From positions 1,146,892 to 1,194,144 of the forward strand of contig KV454014.1 of the NCBI GenBank assembly GCA_001661245.1: a stretch of 47,253 nt of DNA, read 5' to 3'. The stretch is from Pachysolen tannophilus NRRL Y-2460 (lineage: Eukaryota). A program made the position numbers and the translations under genes. The notes below the pieces were generated by a model. It worked only from the letters and a program-made list of their open reading frames with translations. It was not told the DNA's origin and made no database searches. Shown piece by piece: positions 5,922 through 41,345 of this stretch (within the stretch, counting starts at the first letter, position 1; each line of letters opens with the position of its first letter).

Positions 5922-8522
5922 ATGACTGAATCAAATAATAATGGGGAAAGCTGTATTTTTGGGAATTCAAATAATAGATTTTCATCTTTCTCTCCACTTA
6001 CAACTTTAGAGAGCGCTAAAAATGATATTGAAAATAATAGATCATCTAATAGAGAACAGGTGTATCCTTATTTATCAATGTCTCCCGCAGGCGGTAAGCT
6101 TCTAAGAGGTCCAACGTTTAGCTCCTCTATATTGTCTTCCAATGCAGTTATTTCTAATGCATCTACAGGTTTGAATAGAGATTGCTGGTCCCCACTATTT
6201 GTTGATGGTTTAGAAAAAGATTTACCTCCATATAGAACTCAAGAGGATTTAATCAATGAAATTGATTATGATGAATTTCAAAATAGAAGAAATGAAATTG
6301 AACCTCAAGAATTGTATCATTATTTTAATAATGAAAATAATAAAAATTCAAAAAAATTATTTGGAACAAGAGAAAGAATATTTAATAATGACACTATTAG
6401 TAATGGGAATTATAAAGTGAATGATTCACTTTCTCAATTTCAAGATGATTTCAATTCAAGAAATTTTAGTACAAGTACTTCAAAAGTATCAAATAATCAT
6501 GGACTTGTTCCAATTTTCTTGGGAGAAGAAAATAATAATTCAAGTAATACGGTATTTAAAAAGGGAAATGGTTTAATTTCAAATCACGAAGTTTCAAAAC
6601 CAATTGTTTTGAGTAACAGAAATGACAAGACTAATAAAAAATCTCAAATAGAAAACAATTCAAATTATATTCCAAAACCTTCGAAACCAAGGTTTTTAAG
6701 CAAAAATCTTAATAGATCAAAAGATGAAGAACAGGATAAAATAATTGAAAGATTTCAAAATGAATCAACCGAATATTTAAAATACATTGCAGTAATTATT
6801 TTCCAATTTTTAGTAATCATTTTAACACTTTTTTATTATATCTTGAAATTTGCAAAAGATAAAATTGTCTCAACGATTAATAACCATCAAAGTGAAAGTC
6901 AGCACACACAAACAGAGGAATATGCTGAACAGGAAATGAAAAGAGAAAATAATATAGCTGGATTGATATCAAACTCCAGATTACTTTCTCCTTTTCCAAT
7001 TGACACAAAATCATCTTCGCCGTCTTCAAATTCTTTGAAAAGAAGACTTTTATTGAAAAAACCTAAATTTGATTTATTAGAAGCCTCACCTATTGATTCA
7101 ACACCGATGAGCATCGATACGCCTTTAAATAACAAACGGAAAACTAATTTACTGTTTATGCAAAATAGGAATTCATTCATATCCCATTCAAATGATGATC
7201 TGGAAGAAAGTTTTATTGTTAACCCTCTACGATGGAACAATGATGGTGATTACAATGATGGAGATGATAATGGAAAAGTGAAAAATCTAAACCCAAATAC
7301 TTTGAAAGAAGATGATTATGGAACACATTTCTATTTCGATGAAGTTAGAAAAGAAGATAAAAATTCTACTCCAAATATAGAATCAGATCACTACAGAAAA
7401 GTTTTCAACAAAGACGATAAGTTCAAAATACGAATTCAAGAAACAGATCAAAACCTAGTGAAAAACCAAAATGATTACAATGATAGGAACAATGAAAAAA
7501 GAACTTCCAGTATAAGTGATTTGTTTGCGCTGACGGATAGATTCAGAAAAGCTTTTAACAATGGAGTTGAACCACAGATAATAAATGAAAAACGTTATTC
7601 TCAGGAATACCTGTTTGGATATCTTTCTTCAAAATATTCAAGTCCCACAACATTAATGGGAGAGCATTTATTGGGGGATGAAGAATTTTTAACTTACAAA
7701 TCTATCATTCAAGAGAAGAGAAGAAGACAAGAATTGATCAAGGAACAAAGATTAAAAGATCAGGCAAAAGTCAAGCCTTTATCACATGATGAACAACTGG
7801 TTGTTATAAATTACTTAAAATCAACAGACTTGAATAGAATTGTGAAAGACGATTTATTTGGAGTCAGTATCAGAGTGAGGGATTTGAAAACTCTAGAAAA
7901 TGGTAGATGGTTGAACGATAATATCATTGATTGCTATTTATCATTGATTTCCGAAAGGTCAAAGAATAACCTCAAACTCCCAAAAGTTTTCTCCTTTACT
8001 ACACATTTCTACACCACGTTATCCGAAAAAGGTTATCAATCAGTTCTGAGATGGGCAAAACGTAAGAAGGTTGAAGTTACTAAATTAGATTATATTTTTG
8101 TTCCGATAAATACTATGAACTCTCATTGGTCATTGGCAGTCATCAATAATAAAGAGAAAAAATTTCAGTATTACAATTCGTTAAGTTATTTCGGATCAGA
8201 AGATGATAGTGACGAGGTTCAGAAGCTGTATCAATATTCAGGAGGTTTGAAAATCTTAGAAAAATTGAGTAGTTACATGTCTAATGAGCATAAAAGGTTA
8301 AATAACGGTTATTCCGATGTCGATTATGCAAAAGATTATACATTTTATCCTTTGATCAAATGCCCACAACAACAAAATGGTTCCGATTGTGGTGTATTTA
8401 CTTGTACCTTTGTGGAGTATTTGTCAAGAGATATGGGTTTGAATTTTTCTCAAAGTGATATGCCTAATTTGAGGAGAAGAATGTGCTATGAAATTTTAAG
8501 TGAAGCTTTGATTAATCATTGA
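5922..8522 (+). CDS. ULP1: SUMO-specific protease, peptidase C48/Ulp1 family
   Basis: C-terminal C48 motifs WLNDNIIDCY, FTTHFY, FVPIN..SHWSL and CPQQQNGSDCGVFTC, after a long low-complexity N-terminus. First ATG is 5922; the track's 5883 start is TTG. Confidence 0.88.
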   Translation: MTESNNNGESCIFGNSNNRFSSFSPLTTLESAKNDIENNRSSNREQVYPYLSMSPAGGKLLRGPTFSSSILSSNAVISNASTGLNRDCWSPLFVDGLEKDLPPYRTQEDLINEIDYDEFQNRRNEIEPQELYHYFNNENNKNSKKLFGTRERIFNNDTISNGNYKVNDSLSQFQDDFNSRNFSTSTSKVSNNHGLVPIFLGEENNNSSNTVFKKGNGLISNHEVSKPIVLSNRNDKTNKKSQIENNSNYIPKPSKPRFLSKNLNRSKDEEQDKIIERFQNESTEYLKYIAVIIFQFLVIILTLFYYILKFAKDKIVSTINNHQSESQHTQTEEYAEQEMKRENNIAGLISNSRLLSPFPIDTKSSSPSSNSLKRRLLLKKPKFDLLEASPIDSTPMSIDTPLNNKRKTNLLFMQNRNSFISHSNDDLEESFIVNPLRWNNDGDYNDGDDNGKVKNLNPNTLKEDDYGTHFYFDEVRKEDKNSTPNIESDHYRKVFNKDDKFKIRIQETDQNLVKNQNDYNDRNNEKRTSSISDLFALTDRFRKAFNNGVEPQIINEKRYSQEYLFGYLSSKYSSPTTLMGEHLLGDEEFLTYKSIIQEKRRRQELIKEQRLKDQAKVKPLSHDEQLVVINYLKSTDLNRIVKDDLFGVSIRVRDLKTLENGRWLNDNIIDCYLSLISERSKNNLKLPKVFSFTTHFYTTLSEKGYQSVLRWAKRKKVEVTKLDYIFVPINTMNSHWSLAVINNKEKKFQYYNSLSYFGSEDDSDEVQKLYQYSGGLKILEKLSSYMSNEHKRLNNGYSDVDYAKDYTFYPLIKCPQQQNGSDCGVFTCTFVEYLSRDMGLNFSQSDMPNLRRRMCYEILSEALINH

Positions 8523-8967
8523 AAGAAGCTTCTAGGAGTTGAATTTTTATATAGGTTTATAAATTCTTCAATATATTTAATACGGTATTTTTTTATATTT
8601 AGTATTTAACTAGTTCTTTTCAATGAAAAATAGAGAGAAATAAAAAAAAAAAAAAAAAAAGAAAATAAAACTAACTGAAAAGCAAGATATAAAAACAAGA
8701 TCAATCAAAATCAAACAAACATTAACAATAAAAATACTCGATTGAAGAAACTAATAAAGTAATAAACAACAATTAGAGATAAATTGAAACAAAGGCAATA
8801 TTGGTTCAAAGTATAAAAACAAAGGTAAAAAAAAAAAAACCCTACTTTATATATGAAATAACAAATGAGATAAAAAAAATTAAATAAATGTGCGTGATAA
8901 GTGTTGACTTATGGAACTGAATCTTAATTATTTTTAGTTTAATAAGATTTAAAAATGACGAGCTGAC

Positions 8968-11016
8968 TCATATATTAGTAATGTCTTGACCTAACCATAA
9001 ATGTGAAATTCTTGAATATTCTTTAGCTTCGTCAGCTGTGTATTGAATGAACTTTCCTGTGGTTATATCTTTTGGGTCATTTGGTCCACCAACTTTATCG
9101 TAAGCATACCAGAAATACCCGTCGCAACCTTCTGTATATAATGGCATCCACCCCTTTGTGGGCTCATTGATTTTATTAGGGAAATCGTACATTCCATTAG
9201 GAGGAATTATAACAGCTTCAATCTCGATAGGAGAAAGATAAAAATTTTTCAAATCATCAACTGTTTTAAATTCTTCCTTAACCAGTTCCCAATCTTCTTC
9301 CCATGTATTTTTCTTACAATTTCTCACTCCTGAATTTGTCCACAATAGTGTATGATTATCAGGTGAGACATGAGCAGGTTGGATACCTTTGATTTGATTT
9401 GCAATCTTGTAAGTGTGAGTATCAGCTTTTCCTACATTACCACAAGGGTTAACGTTAAAAGTGTAATCTTCATCTCCTGCAATCGAAAATCCTAACCAGT
9501 ACAATTCTTTATCACCGTATGAAGGAGCAGCTGTTGGGAACCAAAATTGTAATGACATAGCAGTTAATAAACCTGTTAAATGTCTTTTCTTATTCATTAA
9601 AACAACACCACTTTCCATAACATGTCTTATATTTTCTTTAAAAAAAATATTTTTTTCTAGTGTATAATCTGTAACTTGATTTATTTTAAAAGATAAAGTT
9701 TCATAAATTGAAGGCATTAGTTTTAAATATAATGCAGTATCACCAGTATGAATTTTTTCAAAATTTTCTCTATCTCTGAAAAAATAAGCACCATTTTTTT
9801 TATAACCTTCTAATTCAAAGAAATCTGTTATTGGAACATAAGGAACAGCATCTGTATCCATTAAAACAACTTCTTCAAATGAATTAAATAATATAGCTAA
9901 CCATTTGTTAAAGTAAGTAATAAATTTATCTCTATAATTACCTGGGAAACATTCGATAGCATCAACGAACCAAATTTCTTGCGGGGAATGATCAATTTTG
10001 TAATTACCAATAATAATATCATTTCTTGCTGCATTGATTAAGCTTGCAACAACTTCATTTGATAAATCACCTTTATGTACAAATTGAATTGGTAATTGAT
10101 TTCTATGATATCTTAATACTCTCATTAAATTTAAAGCTTCTTCTAATAATTGATCTCCCATACTTATTGCAATTCCTTTACCATTCATTTTATTTTGATA
10201 ATTTTGTAAAAAACAAGATTTTTGAGCATTAAATTCAATATTTGGATCAATTGGTTGTTGTGTATCTATATATTGAGACATTATTGGAATATCATTAACA
10301 ATTTCTTCACCTGTCCAACGAGTAAAAGTTGGTAATTTTAAACTTAAAAATGGGAATAATCTTTCTTCCATATTTGTACATTTTTTAGTAGATAAATCAT
10401 TTTGTAAATAACATTTTCCAAAAATTCTTATTGAAGTTACCGAATCAGTTATTGTTTCTTCAATTTTTTTATTAGCACTATATTTTTCTTCTAAAATTTT
10501 ATTTATTTGACTTGGAGAAATAGTTTTAGGATCTTTACCATCTCTTTCATATTCTTCTTTTAATTGAGTTTTTATCTTTTCATAAAAAAAATTTGATTCT
10601 GTATGATATTGATCATTTGAATATTCTAAACCACCAAGATCATAATCTGTTTTCCAATCTGGATTAGTTAAATATAATTGATTAAAATATTCGTCACATT
10701 TCAAATTTAAAGGTTGTTCAAGAAAATTATTTGCATTAATATTTGCATATTCTTTATTATTATTAAATAAATTTTGAAAATTTAATGACATTGATTTAAC
10801 ATTTAAATTATTTAAATATTCCCATTTTTCTCGATCTATTAAAAATTTATTTGTTAAATTAACATAATATTCATGATTAGAATAAACATAATAAATTGTA
10901 ACTTGTATTAATATTATAACAATTAAAATTAAAACTCTTTTAAATGTTCTTGATAATCTTAAATAATTTGGTATTTTATTTTTATAGTTTCCAAGACTAA
11001 CCTGAGCCGAAGCCAT
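8968..11016 (-). CDS. Alpha-1,3-mannosyltransferase, MNN1/MNT (GT71) family, type II membrane protein, paralog A
   Basis: N-terminal TM segment (VLILIVIILIQVTIYYVY); GKGIAIS, LPIQFVHKGDL, PQEIWFVD, NKWLAILFNSFEEVVLMDTD (DxD), FFRDR, MESGVV, YGDKELYWLG. First ATG is 11016. Confidence 0.88.
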   Translation of the reverse strand: MASAQVSLGNYKNKIPNYLRLSRTFKRVLILIVIILIQVTIYYVYSNHEYYVNLTNKFLIDREKWEYLNNLNVKSMSLNFQNLFNNNKEYANINANNFLEQPLNLKCDEYFNQLYLTNPDWKTDYDLGGLEYSNDQYHTESNFFYEKIKTQLKEEYERDGKDPKTISPSQINKILEEKYSANKKIEETITDSVTSIRIFGKCYLQNDLSTKKCTNMEERLFPFLSLKLPTFTRWTGEEIVNDIPIMSQYIDTQQPIDPNIEFNAQKSCFLQNYQNKMNGKGIAISMGDQLLEEALNLMRVLRYHRNQLPIQFVHKGDLSNEVVASLINAARNDIIIGNYKIDHSPQEIWFVDAIECFPGNYRDKFITYFNKWLAILFNSFEEVVLMDTDAVPYVPITDFFELEGYKKNGAYFFRDRENFEKIHTGDTALYLKLMPSIYETLSFKINQVTDYTLEKNIFFKENIRHVMESGVVLMNKKRHLTGLLTAMSLQFWFPTAAPSYGDKELYWLGFSIAGDEDYTFNVNPCGNVGKADTHTYKIANQIKGIQPAHVSPDNHTLLWTNSGVRNCKKNTWEEDWELVKEEFKTVDDLKNFYLSPIEIEAVIIPPNGMYDFPNKINEPTKGWMPLYTEGCDGYFWYAYDKVGGPNDPKDITTGKFIQYTADEAKEYSRISHLWLGQDITNI

Positions 11017-11738: not shown

Positions 11739-14306
11739 CTAGAAAAGATCAACAAAACTAGAAACTTTTTGTAAGATCCATATATTGAAAGGATGGGTCA
11801 ATTCATGGAAATCGTCACCTGCAGTCATCAAGCCTAATACTGTACCATCAACTGGATCTTTATGGATAGCTTTTTTAAAACCTACAATGAAATTTACAAC
11901 GAGTGCAATAATTAGACCTGAACCAAAGACAATCGGTCCCAAGATACCATCTAGATATTTACCTGACCTTTGCTTGATAAGGCTAATTCTCTTATGCCAG
12001 ATTTAGTACCCCCAACATCCAACGAATATCGTTAACACTAGGTAGAAATATGATAAGTACCATGAAAGAGTTTGGAAATTTGAACTTTTTAAACTATTGG
12101 TTAATGCAATTGTTAAAAAAGCCATATATGTTACAACACGATCCCAACTCAATAAAGTTCTCTCATTGGCCAAATAAACTTTAGGTTCTATCTTCAATGG
12201 GCCTGATTGCCTAAGTAATTGTTTTGGCTTTGTAACACCAGGTGGTAAGATTGGTTCTGTTTCATCTTCTGATTCATCATAAGTGGTTGAATAAGTATTA
12301 TTATGGTCAATGAAAAATGGTATGGATAACTTTGGCTTGTTACCCTTTGATTTTTTATTGATATTTTTCGATTTTTGTTGATCAAAACCAGAAGCAGTAG
12401 TTGTTGCATTAGCATTAGCAGCATCTGCAGAACTCGACAGGTGGGCAGCCAGTTCTTGATCTTCCTCATCACTAGACTCATGATCTTCTAAATCTAAATC
12501 ACCATTATCTTGGGCATTAGGTTCATCATTCTTCTTGTTACTGTTTTCATCATTCTCCACCAATTCTTCAATATTACCCAAATATGTAGTTGAATTATTA
12601 TTACCAACTTTTTGTTTTTTCAAAATTTTTAAATTTGAATTTTCTTTCTTCATTTTTTCTATGCGCATAATAGAATCTCTATATGCTTCTTCAGGTTTTT
12701 TACGAATATCACGTTCCAAATCGGATAACCAAAATGGTAAAATATCCAAATTATCACTTTCTAAAAATAATGATGCAACACCTTGAATAAATTTACTAAA
12801 ATTTGGAACTTCTCTAACCAAATGTGAATTTGTCAATTCATTAATCCATTTAAAAGTTTTAGAATTTTTATTAGATAAAATTGAATTACTAACTTTAATC
12901 TCCATAACTGCATAAGGAAATTTTGAATATTCACCTTTGCGTAATAATGAATATGGTTCTTTTAAACCAGGTTGATCAATATCGGCACGATGCCATTGTT
13001 TTGGATCTCTTATTGGTCTATCCTTATCAAAAGAATCTTCCCTGATAAATAAAATATCACTATCAATGATAATTCTAATTTTATCATCTCCAGGAATTTG
13101 AAATGCAGTTCTTGTATAAATTGTTCTTAAAGTTGGTTGAAGATCATTATCCTTAATAAATCTTTGCAAATGTTTAAAATCACCTTCATATTTATTCAAA
13201 ATTTCTTGTGGTAAATTTCTCTTTGATAATTTTTTTGCATATCTTTCAAATGTAAATTTTTTATTTTTATTAGGTGAAGAAAAATTTAATTCATCATCAT
13301 CTTGAAATCCAGTATCTGTATTATCCAGAAAGATAAAATCATTAATATATTTCTCTTTGAGACTTAATTTAACATCATTTGATTCTCCAGTATCATAATT
13401 GAAATTTTTCTGTTCAAGAATCAATTCTTGATTATCCTGTAATTTACCAGTCCATCTGATTCGAAATGAAGGAGTATTATTCAAATTTTTCAATAATTTT
13501 GAATTATACAACTCAAATTCGTTACTATCGAAATATAACGAAGTAATGGTTGGATCATTAACAACCTCATCATAATCATCTTCAGAGTTGTTATAAATTA
13601 AAACTGGAAGATGTCTCAAGATTGTAGTCTTAATTTCCATCAAATTATCTGGATGAACCCAAAATTTTAATACTTTAAAAGTATTATTAGCAGAACTATC
13701 AATTGTTGGAGTTGAAGATAATTTCCCACTTGTCGATAATTTTGAAACAGAATTATTTAAACTTCTAGATAAAGATTCAGATTCAAAATTTTCTCTCAAA
13801 AATTGATAAAGAATACTTAATCTGTATAAATATGGACTATAATCTTCAGAATGGAAAGGTAAATCTTTCATTCTTACAGATAATAAAGCTTTAACCGAAT
13901 ATTTCTTGTGTAAACGATCATGTTTCTTAACAATTTTCAAAAATCCGGTAAAGTTTAACCTTGCAAAATGATCCAATTCTTGAGCATGAGCCAATAATTT
14001 TTCTAAATGTAATTGAAAATCTCTTAAATCAAATTTATAATTATTATTTGATAAATAATTTTCAGAATCTTTTTCTAATTTAGAAATTTCTTCATCAAGA
14101 ATCTTGTATTGTTCTTCTTGAAAATTAAATACTTTCTCCAATTCACTATCCAATTTTGCAACAAACGCACTCTCATCCTTATCTGACCATGGATTCATGC
14201 TCAAGACAACATTCTCCTTCAACAATTTTTTCAATTGCTCATAGTCAATATAATAATCTTTCCACGGCGGGTAGATTTCATTTTGAAGCTTAACGCCAAA
14301 TAACAT
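11739..14306 (-). CDS. VTC3: VTC polyphosphate polymerase complex subunit Vtc2/Vtc3 (SPX + VTC + three-TM domain), interrupted by an in-frame TAA at 12005-12003
   Basis: SPX N-terminus MLFGVKLQNEIYPPWKDYYIDY, KFWVHPDNLMEIKTTILRHLP, RTAFQIPGDDKIRI, KFPYAVMEIK, KIEPKVYLANERT. The frame continues past the TAA (IWHKRISLIKQRSGKYLDGILGPIVFGSGLIIALVVNFIVGF...) to TAG 11741-11739, giving 855 aa if read through. VTC2 and VTC3 cannot be distinguished. Confidence 0.88.
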
Positions 14307-14836: not shown

Positions 14837-17800
14837 CTAGTGCTTTTTTATATCATCAAAGATGTTATTTAGAAATGACAATTCTGAGTTATTGGCATGC
14901 AAGATTTTCTTTTGTAATTGTTGATTTTTCTGAAGTTTGAATAATAGGGAAAAATAAGATTTTTTGAACTCTCCGAAATCCTGGAATTTACTCTCTTTAT
15001 TTGTGGAAGTAGAAGTTGAATGTGCCTTATCTTTGGTTTGTGGGGTGTCTTCCTGAGGTTCTTGGGATTCTTGAGGTTGTTGAGGTTGCTGAGTTTCTTG
15101 AGGTTCTTGGTTTTTTTTTACTTCAGCAGTTTCTTCATTACTGGCCTTTCCTGTCTTGTACAGTTCTGATTCATCTTCAGTGACATCTTCAGAGATTAGT
15201 TCCTTATTCTTTGGGAATGTAGTAGTATTAGCAGATTCTGCCTTTACACTACTAACAGTCTCTGGAACAGTTACCAGCATAGTGGGTTTATTTTCTAATT
15301 TAATACTTGATACTTTTGCCAAGTCATTTTCAAAATTTTGGAAAAGTAATAAACTTTCAATAATCCCAACACAGTCCTTTGTAATAATATCATTTTCATG
15401 AATATCATGATTGAAAAAATATTTTGAATTTCCAAGCTTGGATCTTTTATTGTAATAATACTCTTGCTTCAACTTAATATAATCCTTGATGAAATTAGTC
15501 AAGACTTTATTCTTGATCTTATCCCGAACGGATTTTAATTGAGTCTTAGCATAAACAGTTTCCAATTCTTCAAAATAATCCAGATCATCGTTGTCGCTAC
15601 GGTTTGAATCTTCTTCATTGTTCTGATGTAAAATCAGAGGCGTCAGTTGTCTTGAAGTTTCACTTCTAGGTTTCTTGCCCGGTTTTTGCTTTATCCTTCC
15701 ATCCTTGGTCAATTTGATACCAGGCGGTAAGTTACTTCTATCAACAACTCTTCCTCTTTTATCCAATACAATATGTCCTGAATCCGTATTTGCGCTAGTT
15801 GAGGTATTAACATCAACCTCACCACCATCATCAGCTTCAACAATAACATCGGCATTGGTCTCAGTTTTAGTAGCCCTCGAACTCTTAGCACTCTTCGTAG
15901 CATTACCGTTACTATTAGCTTCACCATCAGCAACGGTTAACTCATCATTCAGCTCAGACTTAATACTACTATTGTTCTTGTTATTGGTGCCGTTTTCATT
16001 CAAAGGCATTCTCTTCTTTCTACCTTTCTTTGTAGCTTTCAGTTTTGCACTACTACTAGTGCCATTAACTCCAGTCCCATCATTGTTGTTAACAACGTTA
16101 GATTCCAGATCAGAAAAGTTATCAACAGCTTCTAAAAACAGCTTCCTCTTCAATTTCATTTGCTCTGCAAATGCAAGTTCTGTTTCTGTATCTCTATCAT
16201 ACACCTCATCATTTTCAATATATTCAACTGGAGGAATTTTGTTTTCTCCATCAATATTCTTATCACCAAATGGATTATTTGATAACTCCGTATCTTCTGT
16301 AAGATCAGTCTCAGAAAGCTTGAAAGCTAACCATAAAAATCTTTTAGCTTTATTTTCCGGTTTAACTTTATCATTTAAGAAAATTTCATTTGCTATGGAA
16401 AAAGTAATTTTCTTTTTCTTTAATTTCAGATCTTCCATTTCATCAGTTTTTTCTTTATTACCATCTAAAATGGAACGTCTATCGGGGAAAAATTGTTCAC
16501 TAATTGGATCTTCATAATTTGAAATTAAAAAAATTAAACTTATTAAATTAAATTTCAAACTTAAACCAATTGTATCAGCGTTTTTAGCATCATTTGAATC
16601 AGATAAATGAGACAGTAACAAATTCTGAAATTCTGTATTCGTTTTGATCAAGCTTTCAGTAAACTCTTTATAAGAGCCTGATGGAATTTCAGCATTGAGA
16701 TCATTAATTGATTTCAAAATTGTTTTCAATCTTGGGGTATCTTGTAGTTGTTTAACGGTGTTTGCAGTATAACCACTTCCTCCACCAAGATTTGATGGCA
16801 TTGGTGTACCAAATTCGGAGACTGCTACTTCAGAATCATGCTGAACGGTATCAGTTTCCACGTTACCAGCATTATAGGTCTTGGATAATTTTAAAATATT
16901 ATCATTGACTTGTAAAACAGGTATACAATGATAAGTTCTTAATTGTGATCTCATCTCATAATCAAAATTTATCGTTGTGTTTAATCTACCAAAATTTACT
17001 AATAAACATAATATAATAAATTTAAAAGCATAGTTTAAATCCAACAGTAATCTTTCTTTTAAGATTTTAGAAATTTTAGAAGATTTTAAAATTGATAATA
17101 GGTATAATTCGAAAAAAGTTAATTTTCCTGAATAACCTTTTGATTGTAATCCTGTGGAGTTATTAATATTATTATCATTATCATTATTTTCCGTTATTGG
17201 TACTTCTGGAGGAGAAAAATCTTTGTTAGGATCCAAACCTTTATTTAATTCATCCCAATAGATAATTTCTTCATCGATAGTGCCAAATGGGTTTGTGAAT
17301 ACTTTTTCATTGTTGCACAAGAGATTTTTAAAAAATTCAAATTGAATATCGCTTCTCCATAATGGCTCACTATCTTTCTTTTTTATGTGCCTTGTTCTAG
17401 AATTAACCAGAGGAGAACGCAGATTTTCATCTTTTGAAGGAGATGTTGAAGCGGTAATTGTTCCACCTGTGGTAGAAGAAACAGGTATAGATACAGATCC
17501 AGGCAGCAGTGGAAGCAGCAGCAGCAGCAGTGATGACAACAGTGACGACAGCAGCGACGACAGCACCTGCTCATCTTTTACTCCAACATCTTTTACTCCA
17601 ACATCATCTGACAGGGACGAGACGCTCTTTCGTTTTTTTTTCGAATGTTGTTGATTTTCTTTTGTTGAGTTTGGTTCTTTATGTTTTCTCTTATGAGATA
17701 ATAGCACTCTTTTACTAGGTGTGGATCCAATTTGATCTGCTGAAGGCACTGATCCATTTGTCGTATTAGCCGGTGTACTTGTATTACTATCATCTATAGG

Positions 17801-18492: not shown

Positions 18493-18499
<7 letters not shown>

Positions 18500-30358: not shown

Positions 30359-31057
30359 ATGTCCGAAGAAAACAACTTGTAAGTATTATTATTTTTTTTT
30401 ATTGTTAGATCATTTCATGAATATCAAAGTAAAGTATGCTAACGTTTTCCCATGCCACTTTTTTTCAGTAAACCTGTAACGGTAGAAAAACCAATACCTG
30501 TTTCATACGATTTGGGTAACTTGGCTGTATTCGATCCAAATCCATTAGATGGTACCAAGCTCACTGATGAAAAAGAATTGAATAAACATTTGGATGAAGT
30601 CACAAGGGATAATGCACAGTTATTAATCAATCAAATACTATCTTTACCTGTCAAGACAACAACTGAATCAAACTCATCTGATGGTGGTCAAAGTTCAACA
30701 ATAACATTGGTTCAACTTCCAGAACCATTAACCCCATTACCAAGAGAGAAATCTGTTCCAAAAGCAAAACTGCCGACCAAATGGGAGCAGTTTGCTGCCA
30801 AGAAAGGTATCAAAAAGAAGGGGAAAGAAGGGAAATTGGCTTATGATGAAGAAGTTGGTGAATGGACTCCTAAATGGGGGTATGGTGGCAAGAACAAAAA
30901 ACTTGATAATCAATGGTTAGTTGAAGTTGACGAAAAAGCTGAGGAAAAAGATGGTTTAATAGATCCTAGATCGTTGAACAGAGCTGAGAGAATGAAATTA
31001 ATTAAAAAAAATCAACTGCAACAGAAAAAAAATTTGAAAGCAGTTGAAAGGAAATAA
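30359..31057 (+). CDS. RRS1: Ribosome biogenesis regulator Rrs1; two exons, 30359-30378 and 30469-31057; 202 aa
   Basis: Spliced N-terminus MSEENNFKPVTVEKPIPVSYDLGNLAVFD; TRDNAQLLINQILSLP; LPREK..TKWEQFAAKKGI; WTPKWGY; QWLVEV. The track's start at 30452 lies inside the intron. Confidence 0.93.
30379..30468 (+). other. Spliceosomal intron (90 nt) in RRS1
   Basis: GTAAGT donor, TGCTAAC branch at 30437-30443, T-tract, CAG acceptor; the join TT|T is in frame. Confidence 0.88.
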
Positions 31058-31357: not shown

Positions 31358-33871
31358 ATGCTTAGTACGAGATCGGAAGCAATATCTAGGACATTAACTA
31401 GTAATTTTGATACCACTACGTTCAATTGTACTTCAAAGAGAACAGTTAATACTCAAGGTTCAATTTTAGGTAATAAGACGATATGTTCAGTTTTTATTTC
31501 TAAATCTGTGTCACCTGTTGTCGGTATTTGTTTTGTATTGGCTGATATTGGTGTTGTGCTATCAACAGAGATCAATGATTCGTTGACTTTGACAAGAACA
31601 GTAAATAAGATTCAAATATATAATCCAAACGAAATCTTGGTAGAAAGTTTATCCAACAAATTAGTCAATATAATTCAGTCAAATATTGATTGTAAAATAA
31701 CTCGTATCAATAAAAAATTCTTCAATAATGATTTAGAATTAATTAAAAAAAGTTCAATAAATCCAGAAAGGGATATTGAATTAAAAGATTATTACTTTGG
31801 TTTATGTGCTACAACAGGTGCAATTAATCATATGAAAGAAAAATATCCAAACTTTAATAAATTTAGAATTAAATATGAGCCTTGTGAAGCAACAATGTTT
31901 ATAGATAAAAAAACTATTAGAAGTTTGGAATTGGTGGAAAATCTAGTTGATCAAGGTCATGGAATCTCATTATTTAAATTTTTAAATTCAACAGTTACCA
32001 AGATGGGAGAACGTGTTCTTAGAAATAACATCTTACAACCTTTGACAGATGCAGAAAGTATCAAGTTAAGATTAGAGTCTGTTAAGGAATTAATATCAAA
32101 CACAAGTACGTTACTGGCACTAAGAGAATTAATGAAAAATTTTCAAGATACGGATAAGTTATTTAATTTATTGGTTTCAGTAAAGACTTCAACAAATAAT
32201 GATCAAAAAATCAATACTGTAATATTATTAAAGCAAGCTGTTGAAATTTCAATAAAGATTTCAAAGTTATTGGAAACTACAAGCTCTTCATTGCTTTTTG
32301 AAATAAAAAATATCTGTAAACATGGAGATATTTTAAAGATACAAGATTTGATAAACGAATATATTAATGAAGACTGTTCATGGGCTTTAACAACTTTAGA
32401 CTTGAGAAATCAAAAATGCTATGCTGTTAAAAGTGGTAGAAATGGATTATTAGATGTCAGTAGACAGCTATATCATAACATAATAGATGATATTATTCTG
32501 ATGGTTGATAGTTTGAGTGAAGAGTTCGAGTTAGATTTGGATTACAAATTTGATTCTACTAGAGGCTTTTATATGAGAATCAAATATTTCCAAGGTGATT
32601 TGAATGAATTACCGGAGGTTTTCATAAATAAAATCAGTAAAAAGGGAAAATTTATTGAATGTACCACATTAAATTTAATAAAAAGTAATTCAAGACTAAA
32701 TAGTACCTTACAAGAAATTATTTTAATGAGCGATCAGATAATTGAAGGTCTTTTGAATGAAGTCGGTAACTATATTTCAACCATGTTTATGCTATCTGAA
32801 GCAATTGCAATTTTGGACTTGTTGTGTTGTTTTGCATATAATGCTGATAATAGTTCAAATTATGTATGTCCTGAAATTGTTGATGAAGAAATGAAGATGG
32901 TTGTGAAACAAAGTAGACATCCTATCCTAGAAAAAAATTTAGTCACCAATAAGTTTATATCAAATGATATAATTTTATTATATGATACTTCAAGGTTGCA
33001 AATCTTAACAGGGGCTAATATGAGTGGTAAATCAGTTTATTTAAAACAGATAGCATTGTTATCGATAATGGCACAAATTGGTTCATTGGTGCCAGCTGAT
33101 TATGCGCTACTTCCTATTTTTGAAAATTTACATGCAAGGATCTGCAATGATAATTTTGAAGTAAACACTTCAACTTTTAGTGCAGAAATGGGTGAAATAT
33201 CTTACATTTTGAAAGAAATAAATTCTAAAAGTTTGTTAATAATCGACGAGTTGGGTAGAGGTTCCAGCTTAAGTGACGGGTTTTCTATTTCTTTGGCGAT
33301 TACAGAATCATTGATACCTGTTGGTTGCTCTTGTTTTATGTCAACTCATTTTACAGATATCCCTAAAATTTTACTGACAAGTCCAGGAGTTGTTCATTTG
33401 CATTTCAAAAGCGAATTAGATTATAATCAAAATGAACTAATTATGTATCACAAATTGATTTCTACAAATAATTTTGAAGTAAATACGTCAATAGCCGAAG
33501 GTTACGGTATATTGATGGTTCAAAAAATTTTACCATCAATAATAATTCAGGATGCAAAGATAATCTCTAAAAATTTGAAAAAAAGGAAAAATAATGATGA
33601 AGAAAGATTCAGAGAAAAATTAGTTGTACTTAAGAAGCAAAGAAGCATGTTAGATTTAGTACAGGTTTTGAAAATAAGTAAAGCTAAGAATCAGTTAGAT
33701 TTGAGTACTTTAAAATTAATTCAAGAACAATTTATTGAGAATTTTAAAAAATTGAATGAAGATAATTACCTGGAAGGTTTTTCATCCAGTCAAGTAGTAG
33801 AAGAAGTAGAAGAAGTAGTAGAAGAAGAAGATATTTACAATGATGAAAATGATGAATTAGAGAAATATTAA
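31358..33871 (+). CDS. MSH4: Meiotic MutS-gamma subunit Msh4
   Basis: TIRSLELVEN, TKMGERVLRNNILQP, NQKCYAVKSGRNGLLDVSR, Walker A TGANMSGKSVYLKQ, STFSAEM, Walker B IIDELGRGSS, STHF. No MutS mismatch-binding domain I is evident. Confidence 0.92.
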   Translation: MLSTRSEAISRTLTSNFDTTTFNCTSKRTVNTQGSILGNKTICSVFISKSVSPVVGICFVLADIGVVLSTEINDSLTLTRTVNKIQIYNPNEILVESLSNKLVNIIQSNIDCKITRINKKFFNNDLELIKKSSINPERDIELKDYYFGLCATTGAINHMKEKYPNFNKFRIKYEPCEATMFIDKKTIRSLELVENLVDQGHGISLFKFLNSTVTKMGERVLRNNILQPLTDAESIKLRLESVKELISNTSTLLALRELMKNFQDTDKLFNLLVSVKTSTNNDQKINTVILLKQAVEISIKISKLLETTSSSLLFEIKNICKHGDILKIQDLINEYINEDCSWALTTLDLRNQKCYAVKSGRNGLLDVSRQLYHNIIDDIILMVDSLSEEFELDLDYKFDSTRGFYMRIKYFQGDLNELPEVFINKISKKGKFIECTTLNLIKSNSRLNSTLQEIILMSDQIIEGLLNEVGNYISTMFMLSEAIAILDLLCCFAYNADNSSNYVCPEIVDEEMKMVVKQSRHPILEKNLVTNKFISNDIILLYDTSRLQILTGANMSGKSVYLKQIALLSIMAQIGSLVPADYALLPIFENLHARICNDNFEVNTSTFSAEMGEISYILKEINSKSLLIIDELGRGSSLSDGFSISLAITESLIPVGCSCFMSTHFTDIPKILLTSPGVVHLHFKSELDYNQNELIMYHKLISTNNFEVNTSIAEGYGILMVQKILPSIIIQDAKIISKNLKKRKNNDEERFREKLVVLKKQRSMLDLVQVLKISKAKNQLDLSTLKLIQEQFIENFKKLNEDNYLEGFSSSQVVEEVEEVVEEEDIYNDENDELEKY

Positions 33872-36825: not shown

Positions 36826-36826
<1 letters not shown>

Positions 36827-36864: not shown

Positions 36865-36865
<1 letters not shown>

Positions 36866-36890
36866 TAGAATTAACTTTGTTGTTATTATC

Positions 36891-38981
36891 ATGCTTTTTA
36901 CTACTTCGAAGCATAGGTTAAAATATTTATTTTTAATAATACTTTTAATTATACAATCAGGGTTTATTTATTGTGTATATACACTTCATTATACAGTTCA
37001 ATATAAAAATGGGAATCTGTTAACAGTTATTGATCAATCAAAATCTTCAAAGACTTATAAATTTTTATTAGAACAATTTTCAGTATCAAATTTAAAAAAT
37101 CTTCCATTAAAAGATAGATGTCATACATATTTTAATAAATTATATGAAATGGATAAAGATTGGTCAATAGGAGATTTTAATGGATTAGAATATTCATTAA
37201 ATTTAGAAAATGAAAAAAGATTTTATAATGAAAGATATGCTACTTTGAAAAAAGAATATACAAAAGAAAAAAAAAATATAGATGAAATTAAACCAGAACA
37301 AATTTTTGAAGAATTTAAAAGGAGAAAAGAAATGAATACAGAAATTGAAGAAAGATTAACAAATGCAGTTGGTCATTTAAGAATTTATGGAAGTTGTTAC
37401 TTGCAAAATAATATTAAAAATGATGAATCTCAATGTTTAGATATTGAACTGAGATTATTCCCATGGTTAACTTTTGAATCTCCAATTTTTGAAAGATGGA
37501 ATGGAACTATTATAAATGATTTCCCTAATATTGCAGATTATTATCAATATGATGATGGAACTGTTAAAAATTCTTATAAAACTGGAAGTTATAATAAAGG
37601 TGAAAACCCAGTTGACCAAAAAGGTAATAAAGTAGCAGCTGGATCTAATGCAGCATTATCCTTTTCATCATCATCATCATCATCATCTTCAAATCCATTT
37701 TTGAAAAATAATTTACCTCTTCCTGGAGAAAGTTGTTATTTTAATACTTTTAAAGAAAAATTAAATGGAAGAGGAATAGTGATAAGTATGGGAGATCAAT
37801 TTGCTAGAGAACTGATAAATTTATTAAAAATTTTAAGATATCATAAAAATGTCTTACCAATTCAATTTGTTCATAAAGGTGATTTAGCTCAAGAGACAAA
37901 ACAACGTTTAATACGTGCTGCTAGAGGTCCAATGAAATTAAAAGGTTATAGCTCAATTGAAATTAATGATTATCCTCAAGAAATTTGGTTTGTTGATACA
38001 AAAAGATGTTTTGCTGATTCTTATTATTACAAATTTAGTTTTTATGCAAATAAATGGTTGGCAGTTTTATTTAATTCTTTCCAAGAAATGATCTTAATGG
38101 ATGCTGATTCTGTTCCTTTTATTAAACCTGTTGATTTTTTGGATATTGAAGATTACAAAAAAACTGGTTGTCATTTTTTCAGAGATCGAGAAACTTTAGA
38201 ACAATTTCCAGATGTTTTTAAAAAAATTTTTTATAATTTATTTCCAAGAGATATTGAAACAGTTCTCTTTGGTATTCCTCAATTAACTCCTCATACTTTA
38301 GAAAATAAATTTTTTAAACATAATGCTAGACATTTTGTGGAATCAGGTATTGTCTTGATGGATAGGAAATCACATCTTTTAGGAATGTTAATGTCAATCC
38401 ATTTACAATTTTGGGGACCTTTAAACACTTTTCTTTATGGTGAAAAGGAAATATTTTGGTTAGGCCAATCAATAGCAGGAAATGAACAATACTCTTATAA
38501 CATTAACCCTGTTGGTGCTATAGGTCCAATAACAACAAGTGAGCATAAGATTGCAGATTCTGCAATTAGCGTACAACCAGCACATATAGGTTCAGACAAT
38601 CATACTTTATTATGGGTTAATAGTGGGTTAGAAACTTGTAAAAGACATTCTTGGACGCATGATTTCAAAAATAACAGGAAATTAAATAAAGAATTTGGCT
38701 CTGAAGATAACTTGAAAAATCATTATCTTTCACCTTTACAAATAGATGGCGTCATTATCCCACCTGATGCTACAAGATATTACGATAATAAAATCAATGA
38801 GCCTAAGAGAGGATGGGAACAAAGAAGTGATCTAGGTTGCGAAGGCTACTTATGGGCTGCTTATAGCAACGTAGGAGATGACAAAAACGGCGCTCGTGGT
38901 AAAGAAGTTAGGTTCAGCGAAGATGAGAAAAAATATTATAATAAAATCGCTTCAATCTGGACTAGTGAACTTGATGAATAG
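36891..38981 (+). CDS. Alpha-1,3-mannosyltransferase, MNN1/MNT (GT71) family, paralog B
   Basis: N-terminal TM segment (YLFLIILLIIQSGFIYCVY), GRGIVISMGD, LPIQFVHKGDL, PQEIWFVD, NKWLAVLFNSFQEMILMDAD, FFRDR, VESGIV, YGEKEIFWLG. Confidence 0.88.
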   Translation: MLFTTSKHRLKYLFLIILLIIQSGFIYCVYTLHYTVQYKNGNLLTVIDQSKSSKTYKFLLEQFSVSNLKNLPLKDRCHTYFNKLYEMDKDWSIGDFNGLEYSLNLENEKRFYNERYATLKKEYTKEKKNIDEIKPEQIFEEFKRRKEMNTEIEERLTNAVGHLRIYGSCYLQNNIKNDESQCLDIELRLFPWLTFESPIFERWNGTIINDFPNIADYYQYDDGTVKNSYKTGSYNKGENPVDQKGNKVAAGSNAALSFSSSSSSSSSNPFLKNNLPLPGESCYFNTFKEKLNGRGIVISMGDQFARELINLLKILRYHKNVLPIQFVHKGDLAQETKQRLIRAARGPMKLKGYSSIEINDYPQEIWFVDTKRCFADSYYYKFSFYANKWLAVLFNSFQEMILMDADSVPFIKPVDFLDIEDYKKTGCHFFRDRETLEQFPDVFKKIFYNLFPRDIETVLFGIPQLTPHTLENKFFKHNARHFVESGIVLMDRKSHLLGMLMSIHLQFWGPLNTFLYGEKEIFWLGQSIAGNEQYSYNINPVGAIGPITTSEHKIADSAISVQPAHIGSDNHTLLWVNSGLETCKRHSWTHDFKNNRKLNKEFGSEDNLKNHYLSPLQIDGVIIPPDATRYYDNKINEPKRGWEQRSDLGCEGYLWAAYSNVGDDKNGARGKEVRFSEDEKKYYNKIASIWTSELDE

Positions 38982-39593: not shown

Positions 39594-41345
39594 ATGAGTT
39601 TTAGGACAGATAGATTGACTGCTATAGAGCTGAAGAAAGCCAAGTTGGAAGAATTAAGGAGGCAGAGGGAATCAAAAAGATTGTTGGTAGCATCAGGTAA
39701 TGATAACTTGTCAGTGAGAAAAGGTATTGATGAATCTGTTGATAAGTTGGTGGAGCAACTTACTCAGACGGTATCATCTGAGGTTGGATCTAGTGATAAT
39801 GATATGGCTGCTGGGACAATTGGGATTACTGGAGCAACCGGAGCAACTGGGACTTTAGCGCTGTCATCTTCGTCTTCGTCGTCATTTGAGAAAAGTAATC
39901 AGGAAAACAAACTGAATTATGTTTCTGTATCGGTACAAGTTGACGATTTGAAACCAACTTCTAAGAAAAATGAAACTATAACGTATAATAAGGGAACACA
40001 AACAGTTGATTTGAATCCAGAAGTAGATGATCTTCTGGACAGTACTTGGGATAATCGAGCAAAGAAAACACAAGAAGAGCTTGAAAATGAGTTAAGAGAA
40101 AAATTATCTTTACAGATTAGAGAAGAATTATCAAGAGAACGTGGAAAAAAGGATAATCACGAGTCACTGAAGAATACTATACGGTCTTCGTTGTATACGA
40201 GACAGATAGATGAAGATAAGTTGATTCAATTTATTGGGAATTCGATGAGGGTTATAGATAGATCCTTATCACAAGATGATAGGACTCCAATGGATCTACA
40301 AGATGGCACACAATCAGGGCTTGAAGATGATTTCCTAGAAAACCAAAGTCTCAAGTTAAAAGCCAAATTGCACCATGAATTAATTACAAATAAATCTGTT
40401 ACTTCGATTGATTGGTCTCCATCAGGTTTATTAATAGCTGTTTCCTACTCAAAATTACCGCCTTCACAAGCAATTAGTTCCCATGAACCAAATAGAGGTA
40501 TCATAATAATATGGAATGCAAAGCTTTGTACCCCAGAATATATATTCACTGCATCAACCGAGATTTTAACCGTTAAATTTCTTGTAAACACTCCTACAAG
40601 AATAGTGGCTGGTGGATATAGCGGCAGAATTTTCCAATATGATATAAATTCAATTTCAAGATTACCCATTTTACAATCTTCCCTTTTTTCAAGAGGTCAT
40701 TCATATCCAGTATTCACAATTTTACAAGTAAACACTTCTTTAAACTCTAAAAATATTTTTGGTGGTGGTAATAATAATGGTGGAACATTAGTAACTATAT
40801 CAACAGATGGTAAAATTTGTCAATGGTCACCGTTTGTATTGGATAAACCAATAAACTCCAGCTTCAAGGTTACTGACACAGTTATTACTGCAATAAGGAT
40901 AAACAATGGAATTTTATTAGGTGGTGATTCTTTATCTTTGATAGATAATTTCCAAAGAAAAACAGCTAAACCATTTGGGGATTTGAGAAAATTTATAACT
41001 GGGTTATCGCATCGATACTCATCTGATATCAATAGTGAAAACTACGATAAGAGTAGGATATTATGCACCACGTTTGATTCTATTTACATTTATTCCGAAA
41101 ATGGAGTAAAAACTAATGAATTTAGAAGTAGTTCGGTGATCATGGATGGTGATTGGTTGTCTGACGATAAAGTTTTGCTGATTAGTGGTACCAATTTAGA
41201 GATTTTTGATACCACGCAGAAAATGGCGTATGCTTCTTTTTCATTAGATATAGAAGGAAAATATTTGAATAAGGTGAAAGTAAATAAAGATCTTGTAAGC
41301 GTTGGTACCGAGGATGGATATTTATATTTATATGAAGTCTTGTAG
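39594..41345 (+). CDS. PAC11: Cytoplasmic dynein intermediate chain (N-terminal helix, light-chain-binding TYNKGTQT, WD40 repeats)
   Basis: KKAKLEELRRQRE, ITYNKGTQT, VTSIDWSP, IIIWN..PEYIFTASTEIL, GGYSGRI, GHSYPV, ISTDGKICQW. First ATG is 39594. Confidence 0.8.
   Translation: MSFRTDRLTAIELKKAKLEELRRQRESKRLLVASGNDNLSVRKGIDESVDKLVEQLTQTVSSEVGSSDNDMAAGTIGITGATGATGTLALSSSSSSSFEKSNQENKLNYVSVSVQVDDLKPTSKKNETITYNKGTQTVDLNPEVDDLLDSTWDNRAKKTQEELENELREKLSLQIREELSRERGKKDNHESLKNTIRSSLYTRQIDEDKLIQFIGNSMRVIDRSLSQDDRTPMDLQDGTQSGLEDDFLENQSLKLKAKLHHELITNKSVTSIDWSPSGLLIAVSYSKLPPSQAISSHEPNRGIIIIWNAKLCTPEYIFTASTEILTVKFLVNTPTRIVAGGYSGRIFQYDINSISRLPILQSSLFSRGHSYPVFTILQVNTSLNSKNIFGGGNNNGGTLVTISTDGKICQWSPFVLDKPINSSFKVTDTVITAIRINNGILLGGDSLSLIDNFQRKTAKPFGDLRKFITGLSHRYSSDINSENYDKSRILCTTFDSIYIYSENGVKTNEFRSSSVIMDGDWLSDDKVLLISGTNLEIFDTTQKMAYASFSLDIEGKYLNKVKVNKDLVSVGTEDGYLYLYEVL

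What the first reader, a model, noticed from the sequence alone, without database searches (positions are those of the whole stretch)
8046..39632. Non-standard genetic code: CTG appears to encode alanine
Seen within the window: CTG 37812-37814 in mannosyltransferase B (GDQFARE-x-INLLKILR) aligns with GCT/Ala in paralog A (GDQLLEE-A-LNLMRVLR). Against recalled homologues: ULP1 8046-8048 YQSV-x-RWAKRKK (other yeasts GYQGVARWAKRKK); RRS1 30770-30772 PKAK-x-PTKWE (S. cerevisiae PKAKAMTKWE); PAC11 39630-39632 IE-x-KKAKL (filamentous fungi ILAKKAKL); MSH4 PKIL-x-TSP (a small residue in S. cerevisiae). CTG also falls in Ala-rich linkers (FAS2 SSV-x-APAASS; VTC QE-x-AAH-x-SSSADAA). Established: CUG-Ala is known in Pachysolen, Nakazawaea and Peterozyma. 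Inference: this genome belongs to that clade, and Ala fits better than Ser or Leu. One site (RRS1 KNQ-x-QQ) is ambiguous.
Basis: partly seen in the sequence, partly recalled or inferred. Interest (0 to 1): 0.8.

Follow-up and report, generated by a model that had tools for sequence, protein, structure and literature searches.

The report
Known yeast code: CTG read as alanine
This stretch of budding-yeast DNA reads the codon CTG as alanine instead of leucine, a real but already published change of the genetic code that public records of these same genes already apply.

Summary
The window is nuclear budding-yeast DNA with 30.6% G+C. It has 16 long ORFs and 77 CTG codons, spread over 12 of the 16 ORFs.

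I ran a Codetta-like test on five ORFs, where 11 of the 19 CTG codons lie in alignable columns.
- **Controls:** 0 of 51 control codons were mis-decoded.
- **Leu:** rejected (0 of 4,000-5,000 resamples).
- **Ser:** disfavoured (P 0-0.003).
- **Ala:** ranks first or second among all residues. The CTG columns are nevertheless less Ala-like than ordinary GCN columns (P 0.013-0.055).

CTG never sits at a strongly conserved Leu, Ala or Ser column.

Public NCBI/UniRef records of seven of the window's own proteins carry Ala at 57 of 57 CTG sites. A single-gene YME2 tree puts the window as sister to Pichiales, where the CUG-Ala clade (Alaninales) lies.

CUG=Ala has been in print since 2016, with LC-MS/MS and a tRNA-Ala(CAG) (PMC4937558). 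It is now a diagnostic character of the order Alaninales (PMC11182611).

The tRNA could not be examined: the window holds no tRNA gene and no genome is held for it.

The parts
5922..8522 (+). ULP1-like SUMO protease ORF (866 aa), 7 CTG codons. Codon 709 (8046-8048) lies in a column with Ala 44, Arg 33, Lys 10, Ser 4, Leu 0 of 97. Codon 626 (7797-7799) has Ala 18, Glu 15, Asp 11.
   Evidence: (Peptidase_C48, E 1e-34)
8968..11016 (-). Mannosyltransferase paralogue A (682 aa), 1 CTG (codon 578, 9283-9285; variable column, Lys 21, Tyr 16). GCT/Ala at 10135-10137 lies opposite the CTG of paralogue B. The public record P0123 has Ala at codon 578.
12003..14306 (-). VTC3/VTC2-like ORF (767 aa up to an in-frame TAA), 3 CTG. 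Codon 327 (13326-13328) aligns with Lys in S. cerevisiae Vtc3. Codons 619 and 623 (12450-12452, 12438-12440) lie in an unalignable Ala/Ser-rich linker.
14837..18355 (-). ORF of 1172 aa with no Pfam family, 27 CTG codons. Thirteen of them fall in codons 265-284 (17504-17563), a CTG/TCN-rich low-complexity run. The exact CTG=Ala translation is in NCBI/UniRef.
19925..22510 (+). YME2 (RNA12 + RRM) ORF, 4 CTG. Codon 363 has Ile 29, Leu 22, Phe 13, Val 13. Codon 395 has Glu 38, Ser 25, Gly 12. Codon 503 (21431-21433) has Gln in 116 of 119. The public record P0368 has Ala at all 4.
22792..26319 (-). ORF of 1175 aa with no Pfam family, 11 CTG codons, several in Ala/Ser/Pro-rich stretches. The exact CTG=Ala translation is in NCBI/UniRef.
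30452..31057 (+). RRS1 ORF (201 aa), 2 CTG. Codon 107 (30770-30772) aligns with Ala in S. cerevisiae and Pro in a second fungal chain, 7ozs_D. Codon 189 (31016-31018) aligns with Lys in both.
31358..33871 (+). MSH4 ORF (837 aa), 4 CTG. Codon 253 has Phe 48, Asp 17. Codon 381 has Gln 42, Glu 22. Codon 673 (33374-33376) has Ala 29, Ser 26, Lys 22, Gly 13 of 119. Codon 805 is unaligned. The public record P0001 has Ala at all 4.
36891..38981 (+). Mannosyltransferase paralogue B (696 aa), 3 CTG. Codon 308 (37812-37814) has Leu 49, Thr 28, Ala 25, Val 19 of 149. Codon 187 has Ser 22, Lys 21. Codon 43 is unaligned.
39594..41345 (+). Dynein intermediate chain (PAC11-like) ORF (583 aa), 6 CTG. No CTG column could be read reliably: codon 13 (39630-39632) is outside every PDB match and the others lie in poorly aligned stretches. 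The exact CTG=Ala translation is in NCBI/UniRef.
41461..47004 (-). FAS2 ORF (1847 aa), 4 CTG. Codons 112 and 299 lie in Ala/Ser-rich linkers. Codon 912 aligns with Glu/Pro/Pro and codon 1712 with Ser/Asn/Ser in solved fungal FAS2 chains. The exact CTG=Ala translation is in NCBI/UniRef.
3532..5229 (+). ORF of 565 aa, low complexity with a zinc-finger-like stretch and no Pfam family, 5 CTG codons. No homologue columns were examined.

Best explanation
The window is nuclear DNA of a budding yeast of the CUG-Ala clade (order Alaninales: Pachysolen, Nakazawaea, Peterozyma). Its CTG codons are translated as alanine (NCBI table 26).

The mechanism is taken from the literature and was not shown here. 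The ancestral tRNA-Leu(CAG) was lost, and an anticodon-mutated tRNA-Ala(CAG) captured the codon. That tRNA keeps the alanine identity elements G3:U70 and A73, so alanyl-tRNA synthetase charges it with Ala.

CTG cannot be reached from GCN by a single base change. My inference is that present-day CTG codons arose mostly by point mutation from Leu, Gln, Pro, Arg or Val codons at tolerant sites. That would explain why they lie mainly in weakly conserved columns and low-complexity linkers.
For: (1) Column test on MSH4, two mannosyltransferases, ULP1 and YME2. Homologues came, and the window's own records were dropped. Of the 19 CTG codons, 11 lie in usable columns.
- All 51 control codons with at least 5 columns decode to their standard residue.
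- For CTG, log-odds are Ala -0.7, Ser -4.7, Leu -16.2 unweighted.
- With sequence weights they are Ala +1.0, Ser -5.5, Leu -15.1.
- In all 10 parameter settings Ala beats Ser by 4-9 nats and Leu by 14-19 nats.
- Resampling true Leu columns never reaches the observed Ala-Leu margin (0 of 5,000; 0 of 4,000 in each of 10 settings).
- Resampling true Ser columns gives P 0.0014 and 0-0.003.

(2) CTG occupies 0 of 92 strongly conserved Leu columns that hold a Leu-box codon. P is 0.007 if CTG were an ordinary Leu codon.

(3) Public records of the window's own proteins carry Ala at every CTG site examined.
- P0001, P0123 and P0368 have Ala at 9 of 9 sites.
- Exact table-26 translations of FAS2, PAC11 and the 1172-aa and 1175-aa ORFs are in NCBI/UniRef, covering 48 sites.
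- In total that is 57 of 57 sites.

(4) In the YME2 tree, the window plus one unnamed relative (support 100) is sister (SH-aLRT 91) to Komagataella, Kuraishia, Ogataea, Brettanomyces, C. boidinii and C. arabinofermentans. The published tree places the Ala clade there (PMC5951914, passages).

(5) Literature.
- Pachysolen: 97.2% of 907 fully supported CUG positions read as Ala by LC-MS/MS, and tRNA(CAG) has G3:U70 and A73 (PMC4937558, passages).
- CUG=Ala is diagnostic of Alaninales (PMC11182611, passages).
- 12 of 16 ORFs here hold a CTG, against 80% of genes in that paper.
Against: The window-internal signal for Ala is modest.
- Unweighted, Gln scores marginally above Ala. This is driven by YME2 codon 503, where 116 of 119 homologues have Gln.
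- The CTG columns are less Ala-like than ordinary GCN columns (lower-tail P 0.013-0.055).
- CTG occupies 0 of 27 strongly conserved Ala columns (P 0.016 if it were used like GCN).
- Single columns point elsewhere: mannosyltransferase B 308 (Leu 49 of 149), YME2 363 (Ile/Leu/Phe/Val), YME2 395 and mannosyltransferase B 187 (Ser frequent), FAS2 1712 (Ser/Asn/Ser).
- A neighbour-composition test ranks Ser first for the surroundings of CTG, though that test is unreliable.

No tRNA gene and no peptide data could be examined. The public records show what annotators assumed, so they are not an independent measurement. No named Alaninales protein was available for the tree.
Confidence: 0.93

Rival explanations
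1. CTG is read as serine, as in the CUG-Ser1 (Candida, table 12) or CUG-Ser2 (Ascoidea/Saccharomycopsis) yeasts.
For: Ser is frequent in several CTG columns:
- mannosyltransferase B 187 (Ser 22 of 149);
- YME2 395 (Ser 25 of 119);
- MSH4 673 (Ser 26 of 119, and Ser in two Saccharomyces species);
- FAS2 1712 (Ser/Asn/Ser).

Many CTG codons sit in Ser-rich low-complexity runs, and the neighbour-composition score ranks Ser first. The best named MSH4 hit is Ascoidea rubescens, at 49% identity.
Against: Ser trails Ala by 4-9 nats in all 10 settings. Resampled true Ser columns reach the observed margin with P 0-0.003. ULP1 709 has Ala 44 against Ser 4 of 97. The YME2 tree places the window beside Pichiales, away from the six Serinales rows and from Saccharomycopsis. 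Public records carry Ala at 57 of 57 sites.
Confidence: 0.03
2. CTG keeps its standard meaning, leucine. The Ala-like alignments are chance at variable sites.
For: Two of the 11 usable columns are hydrophobic: mannosyltransferase B 308 (Leu 49, Val 19, Ile 12 of 149) and YME2 363 (Ile 29, Leu 22).
Against: - Leu log-odds are -13 to -19, against about 0 for Ala.
- 0 of 4,000-5,000 resamples of true Leu columns reach the observed margin.
- CTG occupies 0 of 92 conserved Leu columns held by Leu-box codons (P 0.007).
- Leu occurs in 0 of 97 homologues at ULP1 709.
Confidence: 0.01
3. CTG is decoded ambiguously (Ala plus another residue), as Ascoidea asiatica decodes CUG stochastically as Ser and Leu. 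Selection therefore keeps it out of constrained sites.
For: CTG avoids strongly conserved columns of all three kinds: 0 of 104 Leu, 0 of 36 Ala and 0 of 25 Ser. Its columns are atypically variable for an Ala codon (P 0.013-0.055). Dual decoding is known in a yeast (PMC6041473; I saw only the title and the start of the abstract in the search listing).
Against: In Pachysolen, LC-MS/MS found Ala at 97.2% of fully supported CUG positions and only 8 ambiguous positions (PMC4937558). The avoidance is explained more simply by mutational isolation, since CTG is two substitutions away from every GCN codon. Nothing in the window bears directly on this rival.
Confidence: 0.03

Closest known systems
Pachysolen tannophilus nuclear code (NCBI table 26), CUG-Ala clade / order Alaninales (Pachysolen, Nakazawaea, Peterozyma)
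   Same: - CTG columns fit Ala best among Ala, Ser and Leu.
- CTG is present in 12 of 16 ORFs, against 80% of genes in the published genome.
- The phylogenetic position beside Pichiales matches.
- Public records of these genes are translated with CTG=Ala.
   Different: Nothing in kind. In this window CTG lies mostly at weakly conserved sites and never at strongly conserved Ala columns. The 2016 paper describes CUG as mainly at conserved alanine positions in cytoskeletal and motor proteins. The species was not established here.
CUG-Ser1 code (NCBI table 12; Candida and other Serinales)
   Same: The same codon, CTG, is reassigned away from Leu in a budding yeast. It is likewise depleted at conserved Leu positions.
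   Different: There the residue is Ser, carried by a tRNA-Ser(CAG). Here Ser is disfavoured (P 0-0.003) and the window does not group with Serinales in the YME2 tree.
CUG-Ser2 clade (Ascoidea, Saccharomycopsis), including stochastic Ser/Leu decoding in Ascoidea asiatica
   Same: An A+T-rich yeast with reassigned CTG. Ascoidea rubescens is the best named MSH4 hit (49% identity).
   Different: The window is not sister to Saccharomycopsis in the YME2 tree. There is no evidence here for competing tRNAs, and Ala rather than Ser is favoured.

Membership tests
CUG-Ala nuclear code (table 26, Alaninales) | CTG codons align with Ala better than with Leu or Ser in orthologue columns | tested here: met
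   There are 11 usable columns among the 19 CTG codons of 5 ORFs. Ala beats Ser by 4-9 nats and Leu by 14-19 nats in 10 of 10 settings. Controls: 0 of 51 codons mis-decoded. The signal is modest, and Gln ties with Ala when sequences are unweighted.
CUG-Ala nuclear code (table 26, Alaninales) | A tRNA with anticodon CAG of alanine type (G3:U70, A73, no long variable arm) | not testable with these tools
   The window holds no tRNA gene (ARAGORN; Rfam). No whole genome is held for it.
CUG-Ala nuclear code (table 26, Alaninales) | Peptides with Ala at CUG positions | not testable with these tools
   This needs LC-MS/MS. It is published for Pachysolen only (PMC4937558).
CUG-Ala nuclear code (table 26, Alaninales) | Phylogenetic position in the clade sister to Pichiales | tested here: inconclusive
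   In the quick IQ-TREE of YME2 (27 rows), the window plus unnamed P0369 is sister to 8 Pichiales rows (SH-aLRT 91). The position fits. However, it is one gene, the careful search did not finish, and no named Alaninales row was available.
CUG-Ala nuclear code (table 26, Alaninales) | Public annotation of the same genes uses CTG=Ala | tested here: met
   57 of 57 CTG sites in 7 public proteins carry Ala. Four of 8 exact table-26 look-ups were found. The four not found are RRS1, mannosyltransferase B, ULP1 and the 565-aa ORF, probably because the gene models differ.
CUG-Ser codes (table 12; Serinales, Ascoideales) | CTG codons align with Ser | tested here: not met
   Ser log-odds are -3.7 to -6.9 against -2.1 to +2.1 for Ala. 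Resampled Ser columns give P 0-0.003.
CUG-Ser codes (table 12; Serinales, Ascoideales) | Phylogenetic position within Serinales or Ascoideales | tested here: not met
   In the YME2 tree the window is separate from the 6 Serinales rows (their clade has support 100) and from Saccharomycopsis.
Standard code (CUG-Leu) | CTG used at conserved Leu positions like other Leu codons | tested here: not met
   CTG occupies 0 of 92 conserved Leu columns held by Leu-box codons (P 0.007). 0 of 4,000-5,000 resamples reach the observed margin.

The most novel reading that the evidence does not exclude
CTG in this yeast may not be a fully equivalent alanine codon. It is excluded from strongly conserved Ala columns (0 of 27, P 0.016), and its columns are more variable than GCN columns (P 0.013-0.055). 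This could reflect residual ambiguous or inefficient decoding that selection keeps out of constrained sites, rather than only the two-step mutational distance between CTG and GCN.
Probability: 0.05. Interest if true: 0.5.

Novelty: already known. Interest (0 to 1): 0.12.

Why it matters
Reassignment of a sense codon in a nuclear genome is rare, and reading CTG as Leu would put the wrong residue at 77 sites in this window alone. This case, however, has been in print since 2016, has its own NCBI table (26) and is a diagnostic character of the order Alaninales. The public protein records of these genes already apply it.

The practical value is limited to two points. The window should be translated with table 26. 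Standard-code gene calls of relatives in metagenome-style collections probably carry false Leu at such sites.

Tried and rejected
- **tRNA search:** ARAGORN and Rfam at gathering thresholds found nothing in the window. No whole genome is held, so the tRNA(CAG) test could not be done.
- **Earlier notes of this scan:** none for this genome.
- **Sequencing runs:** 5 runs from 2 studies hold the YME2 stretch. No RNA holder was listed, and organism names are coded.
- **PAC11 N-terminus against PDB:** 0 matches even at E 10.
- **Neighbour-composition classifier (±4 codons, all 77 CTG):** it ranks Ser first, with Ala 3.7 nats behind when the 1172-aa ORF is left out and outside the top six (more than 10.5 nats behind) when it is included. 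I rejected it as a discriminator. It is trained on its own test positions, yet still misassigns 8 of 52 codons, all of them rare ones such as CTA, AGC, GAC and TCG.
- **MAFFT --auto on 150 mannosyltransferases:** I replaced it with query-anchored phmmer alignments.
- **Liu et al. 2012 genome note:** not held.
- **Exact look-ups of RRS1 under tables 26, 1 and 12:** all absent from the collection, so they say nothing either way.

Full report
**What is in the window.** The window is 47,253 bases with 30.6% G+C. It holds 16 ATG-started ORFs of at least 150 codons, 11,706 codons in all with stops included.
- ULP1 (Peptidase_C48);
- two Mannosyl_trans3 paralogues on opposite strands;
- a VTC2/3-like protein;
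- YME2 (RNA12 + RRM);
- an L7Ae-family protein;
- homoaconitase (aconitase family);
- RRS1;
- MSH4 (MutS III and V);
- asparaginase;
- SLD5;
- FAS2.

The PAC11-like ORF matches dynein intermediate chains in the PDB. Three ORFs have no Pfam family.

There are 77 in-frame CTG codons, in 12 of the 16 ORFs. Twenty-seven of them are in the 1172-aa ORF at 14837-18355. The residue in paralogue A opposite CTG 37812-37814 is GCT at 10135-10137.

**Homologue columns.** To avoid bias I translated CTG as X in all searches. I spent the three word-index searches on MSH4, the ULP1 catalytic half and YME2. The one exhaustive search went on mannosyltransferase B, and its 150 hits also served for paralogue A. 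Alignments were query-anchored with phmmer. Rows more than 80% identical to the query were dropped. That removed P0001, P0122, P0123 (from the paralogue A set) and P0368, which are the window's own records. The window's paralogue A remains as one of the 149 rows of the paralogue B set.

Of the 19 CTG codons in these five ORFs, 11 lie in columns filled in at least half of the rows. The other 8 lie in unalignable N-termini, insertions or tails. The 11 usable columns read as follows:

| ORF, codon | Most frequent residues in homologues |
|---|---|
| ULP1 709 | Ala 44, Arg 33, Lys 10, Ser 4, Leu 0 (of 97) |
| ULP1 626 | Ala 18, Glu 15, Asp 11, Leu 6 |
| MSH4 673 | Ala 29, Ser 26, Lys 22, Gly 13 (of 119) |
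| MSH4 253 | Phe 48, Asp 17 |
| MSH4 381 | Gln 42, Glu 22 |
| mannosyltransferase B 308 | Leu 49, Thr 28, Ala 25, Val 19 (of 149) |
| mannosyltransferase B 187 | Ser 22, Lys 21 |
| mannosyltransferase A 578 | Lys 21, Tyr 16 |
| YME2 363 | Ile 29, Leu 22, Phe 13, Val 13 |
| YME2 395 | Glu 38, Ser 25, Gly 12 |
| YME2 503 | Gln 116 (of 119) |

Five more columns could be read only from PDB alignments by eye:
- RRS1 107: Ala in S. cerevisiae, Pro in the chain 7ozs_D.
- RRS1 189: Lys in both.
- FAS2 912: Glu/Pro/Pro.
- FAS2 1712: Ser/Asn/Ser.
- VTC 327: Lys.

The paralogue example is weaker than it looked, and the PAC11 example could not be tested.

**Statistics.** I used a Codetta-like score: for each residue, the sum over columns of the log of column frequency over background.
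- It decodes every one of the 51 control codons with at least 5 columns to its standard residue.
- CTG is the only codon that departs from the standard.
- Unweighted, CTG scores Gln +0.8, Ala -0.7, Ser -4.7, Leu -16.2.
- With Henikoff weights it scores Ala +1.0, Gln -0.7, Ser -5.5, Leu -15.1.
- Across 10 settings of pseudocount, occupancy and weighting, Ala leads Ser by 4-9 nats and Leu by 14-19 nats.

I then resampled sets of the same size from columns of true Leu, Ser or Ala codons.
- The observed Ala-minus-Leu margin is never reached by Leu columns (0 of 5,000; 0 of 4,000 in each of the 10 settings).
- The Ala-minus-Ser margin is reached by Ser columns with P 0.0014 and 0-0.003.
- For true Ala columns the observed margin lies in the lower tail (P 0.025; 0.013-0.055).

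At columns where at least 70% of homologues agree, CTG occupies none of 104 Leu, 36 Ala or 25 Ser columns. Given its share among the respective codon sets, the probabilities of seeing none are as follows:

| Codon set | Conserved columns held by that set | P(no CTG) |
|---|---|---|
| Leu | 92 | 0.007 |
| Ala | 27 | 0.016 |
| Ser | 22 | 0.28 |

The window by itself therefore rejects Leu firmly, prefers Ala to Ser moderately, and shows that CTG sits at weakly constrained sites. My inference is that the last point follows from CTG being two substitutions away from every GCN codon. New CTG codons would then arise from Leu, Gln, Pro, Arg or Val codons at tolerant positions. That fits the Gln, Pro, Arg and Leu/Val-rich columns listed above.

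**Evidence against, told in full.**
- Gln ties with or slightly beats Ala when sequences are unweighted, because of one invariant-Gln column.
- Two columns are hydrophobic, and three or four are Ser-rich.
- A neighbour-composition classifier over all 77 CTG codons ranks Ser first. This reflects Ser-rich low-complexity runs such as codons 265-284 of the 1172-aa ORF. I do not trust that classifier: it sees its own test positions in training and still misassigns 8 of 52 codons.

**Public records.** The collection holds the window's own MSH4, mannosyltransferase A and YME2 proteins with Ala at 9 of 9 CTG sites. Exact look-ups found 4 of 8 table-26 translations in NCBI/UniRef/nr: FAS2, PAC11, the 1172-aa ORF and the 1175-aa ORF, covering 48 CTG sites. 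RRS1, mannosyltransferase B, ULP1 and the 565-aa ORF were not found, probably because the gene models differ. RRS1 under tables 1 and 12 was not found either. Thus 57 of 57 CTG sites checked are already Ala in public annotation. This shows that the code of this genome is already recognised. It is not an independent measurement of decoding.

**Phylogenetic position.** The nearest named relatives are Kuraishia, Ogataea, Candida boidinii, C. arabinofermentans, Komagataella and Babjeviella, at about 45-55% identity. I built a quick IQ-TREE of YME2 with 27 rows and 844 columns; the careful search did not finish. It joins the window to one unnamed Logan-derived protein, P0369 (support 100). That pair is sister (SH-aLRT 91) to eight Pichiales rows (support 96), and it is apart from six Serinales rows and from Saccharomycopsis. 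Published whole-genome trees put the Ala clade in this position (PMC5951914, passages). No named Alaninales protein appeared in any hit list, so clade membership is inferred from position and from the annotation. I did not establish the species.

**Comparison with what is known.** I read passages of these papers, not the whole texts.
- Mühlhausen et al. 2016 (PMC4937558) showed by LC-MS/MS that Pachysolen reads CUG as Ala at 97.2% of 907 fully supported positions. [quoted passage not shown] In that genome, 80% of genes hold a CUG.
- Krassowski et al. 2018 (PMC5951914) extended the Ala clade to Nakazawaea and Peterozyma.
- Groenewald et al. 2023 (PMC11182611) made CUG=Ala a diagnostic character of the order Alaninales.

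The finding is therefore a correct recognition of a known code and not a new one.

**What was not possible.** The tRNA(CAG) could not be examined. The window holds no tRNA gene and no genome is held for it. No RNA run was listed.

**Verdict.** Confidence that CTG means Ala here is about 0.93. Novelty: already known. Interest is low.

Noticed in passing
window 12003-12005 (- strand), with 11741-12002 downstream: The VTC3-like ORF ends at an in-frame TAA that aligns with an Arg of S. cerevisiae Vtc3. Homology then continues in the same frame for about 50 more codons, through the last transmembrane helix (E 1e-20 when the stop is read as X). There is no gap that would suggest an intron. This is either a real nonsense or read-through site, or an assembly error.
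   Followed up: partly
window 21431-21433 (+), YME2 codon 503: This CTG stands in a column where 116 of 119 homologues have Gln, including the closest relative. CTG is one base away from CAG. Whatever CTG encodes, this is a radical change at a nearly invariant site, unless it is a base-call error.
   Followed up: no
window 17504-17563 (- strand), codons 265-284 of the 1172-aa ORF: This is a CTG/TCN-rich low-complexity run with 13 CTG in 20 codons, including five in a row. It reads as poly-Ala/Ser under table 26. It holds a sixth of all CTG codons in the window and dominates any context statistic.
   Followed up: partly
protein P0369 (unnamed, Logan-derived; YME2 relative, about 61% identical): It is sister to the window in the YME2 tree (support 100). 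It has Leu at 2 of 17 strongly conserved Ala columns, the highest count among 119 rows. It also has Leu at 5 of 41 of the window's Ala positions and at the window's CTG column 395. It may be a CUG-Ala relative whose genes were called with the standard code.
   Followed up: partly
proteins P0475 and P0464 (unnamed YME2 homologues); P0170 (mannosyltransferase): These rows show Leu at 4 of 11 (P0475, P0464) or 3 of 3 (P0170) strongly conserved Ser columns. That is the signature expected of CUG-Ser yeasts translated with the standard code. It serves as an unplanned positive control for the column approach.
   Followed up: no
window 8968-11016 (-) and 36891-38981 (+): Two Mannosyl_trans3 (MNN1-family) paralogues lie 26 kb apart on opposite strands, about 46% identical.
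   Followed up: no
window 19925-22510 (+): The public YME2 record (P0368) is 811 aa and the longest ATG ORF is 861 aa, so the annotated start lies 50 codons downstream. Four of 8 exact look-ups failed, probably for similar gene-model reasons.
   Followed up: no
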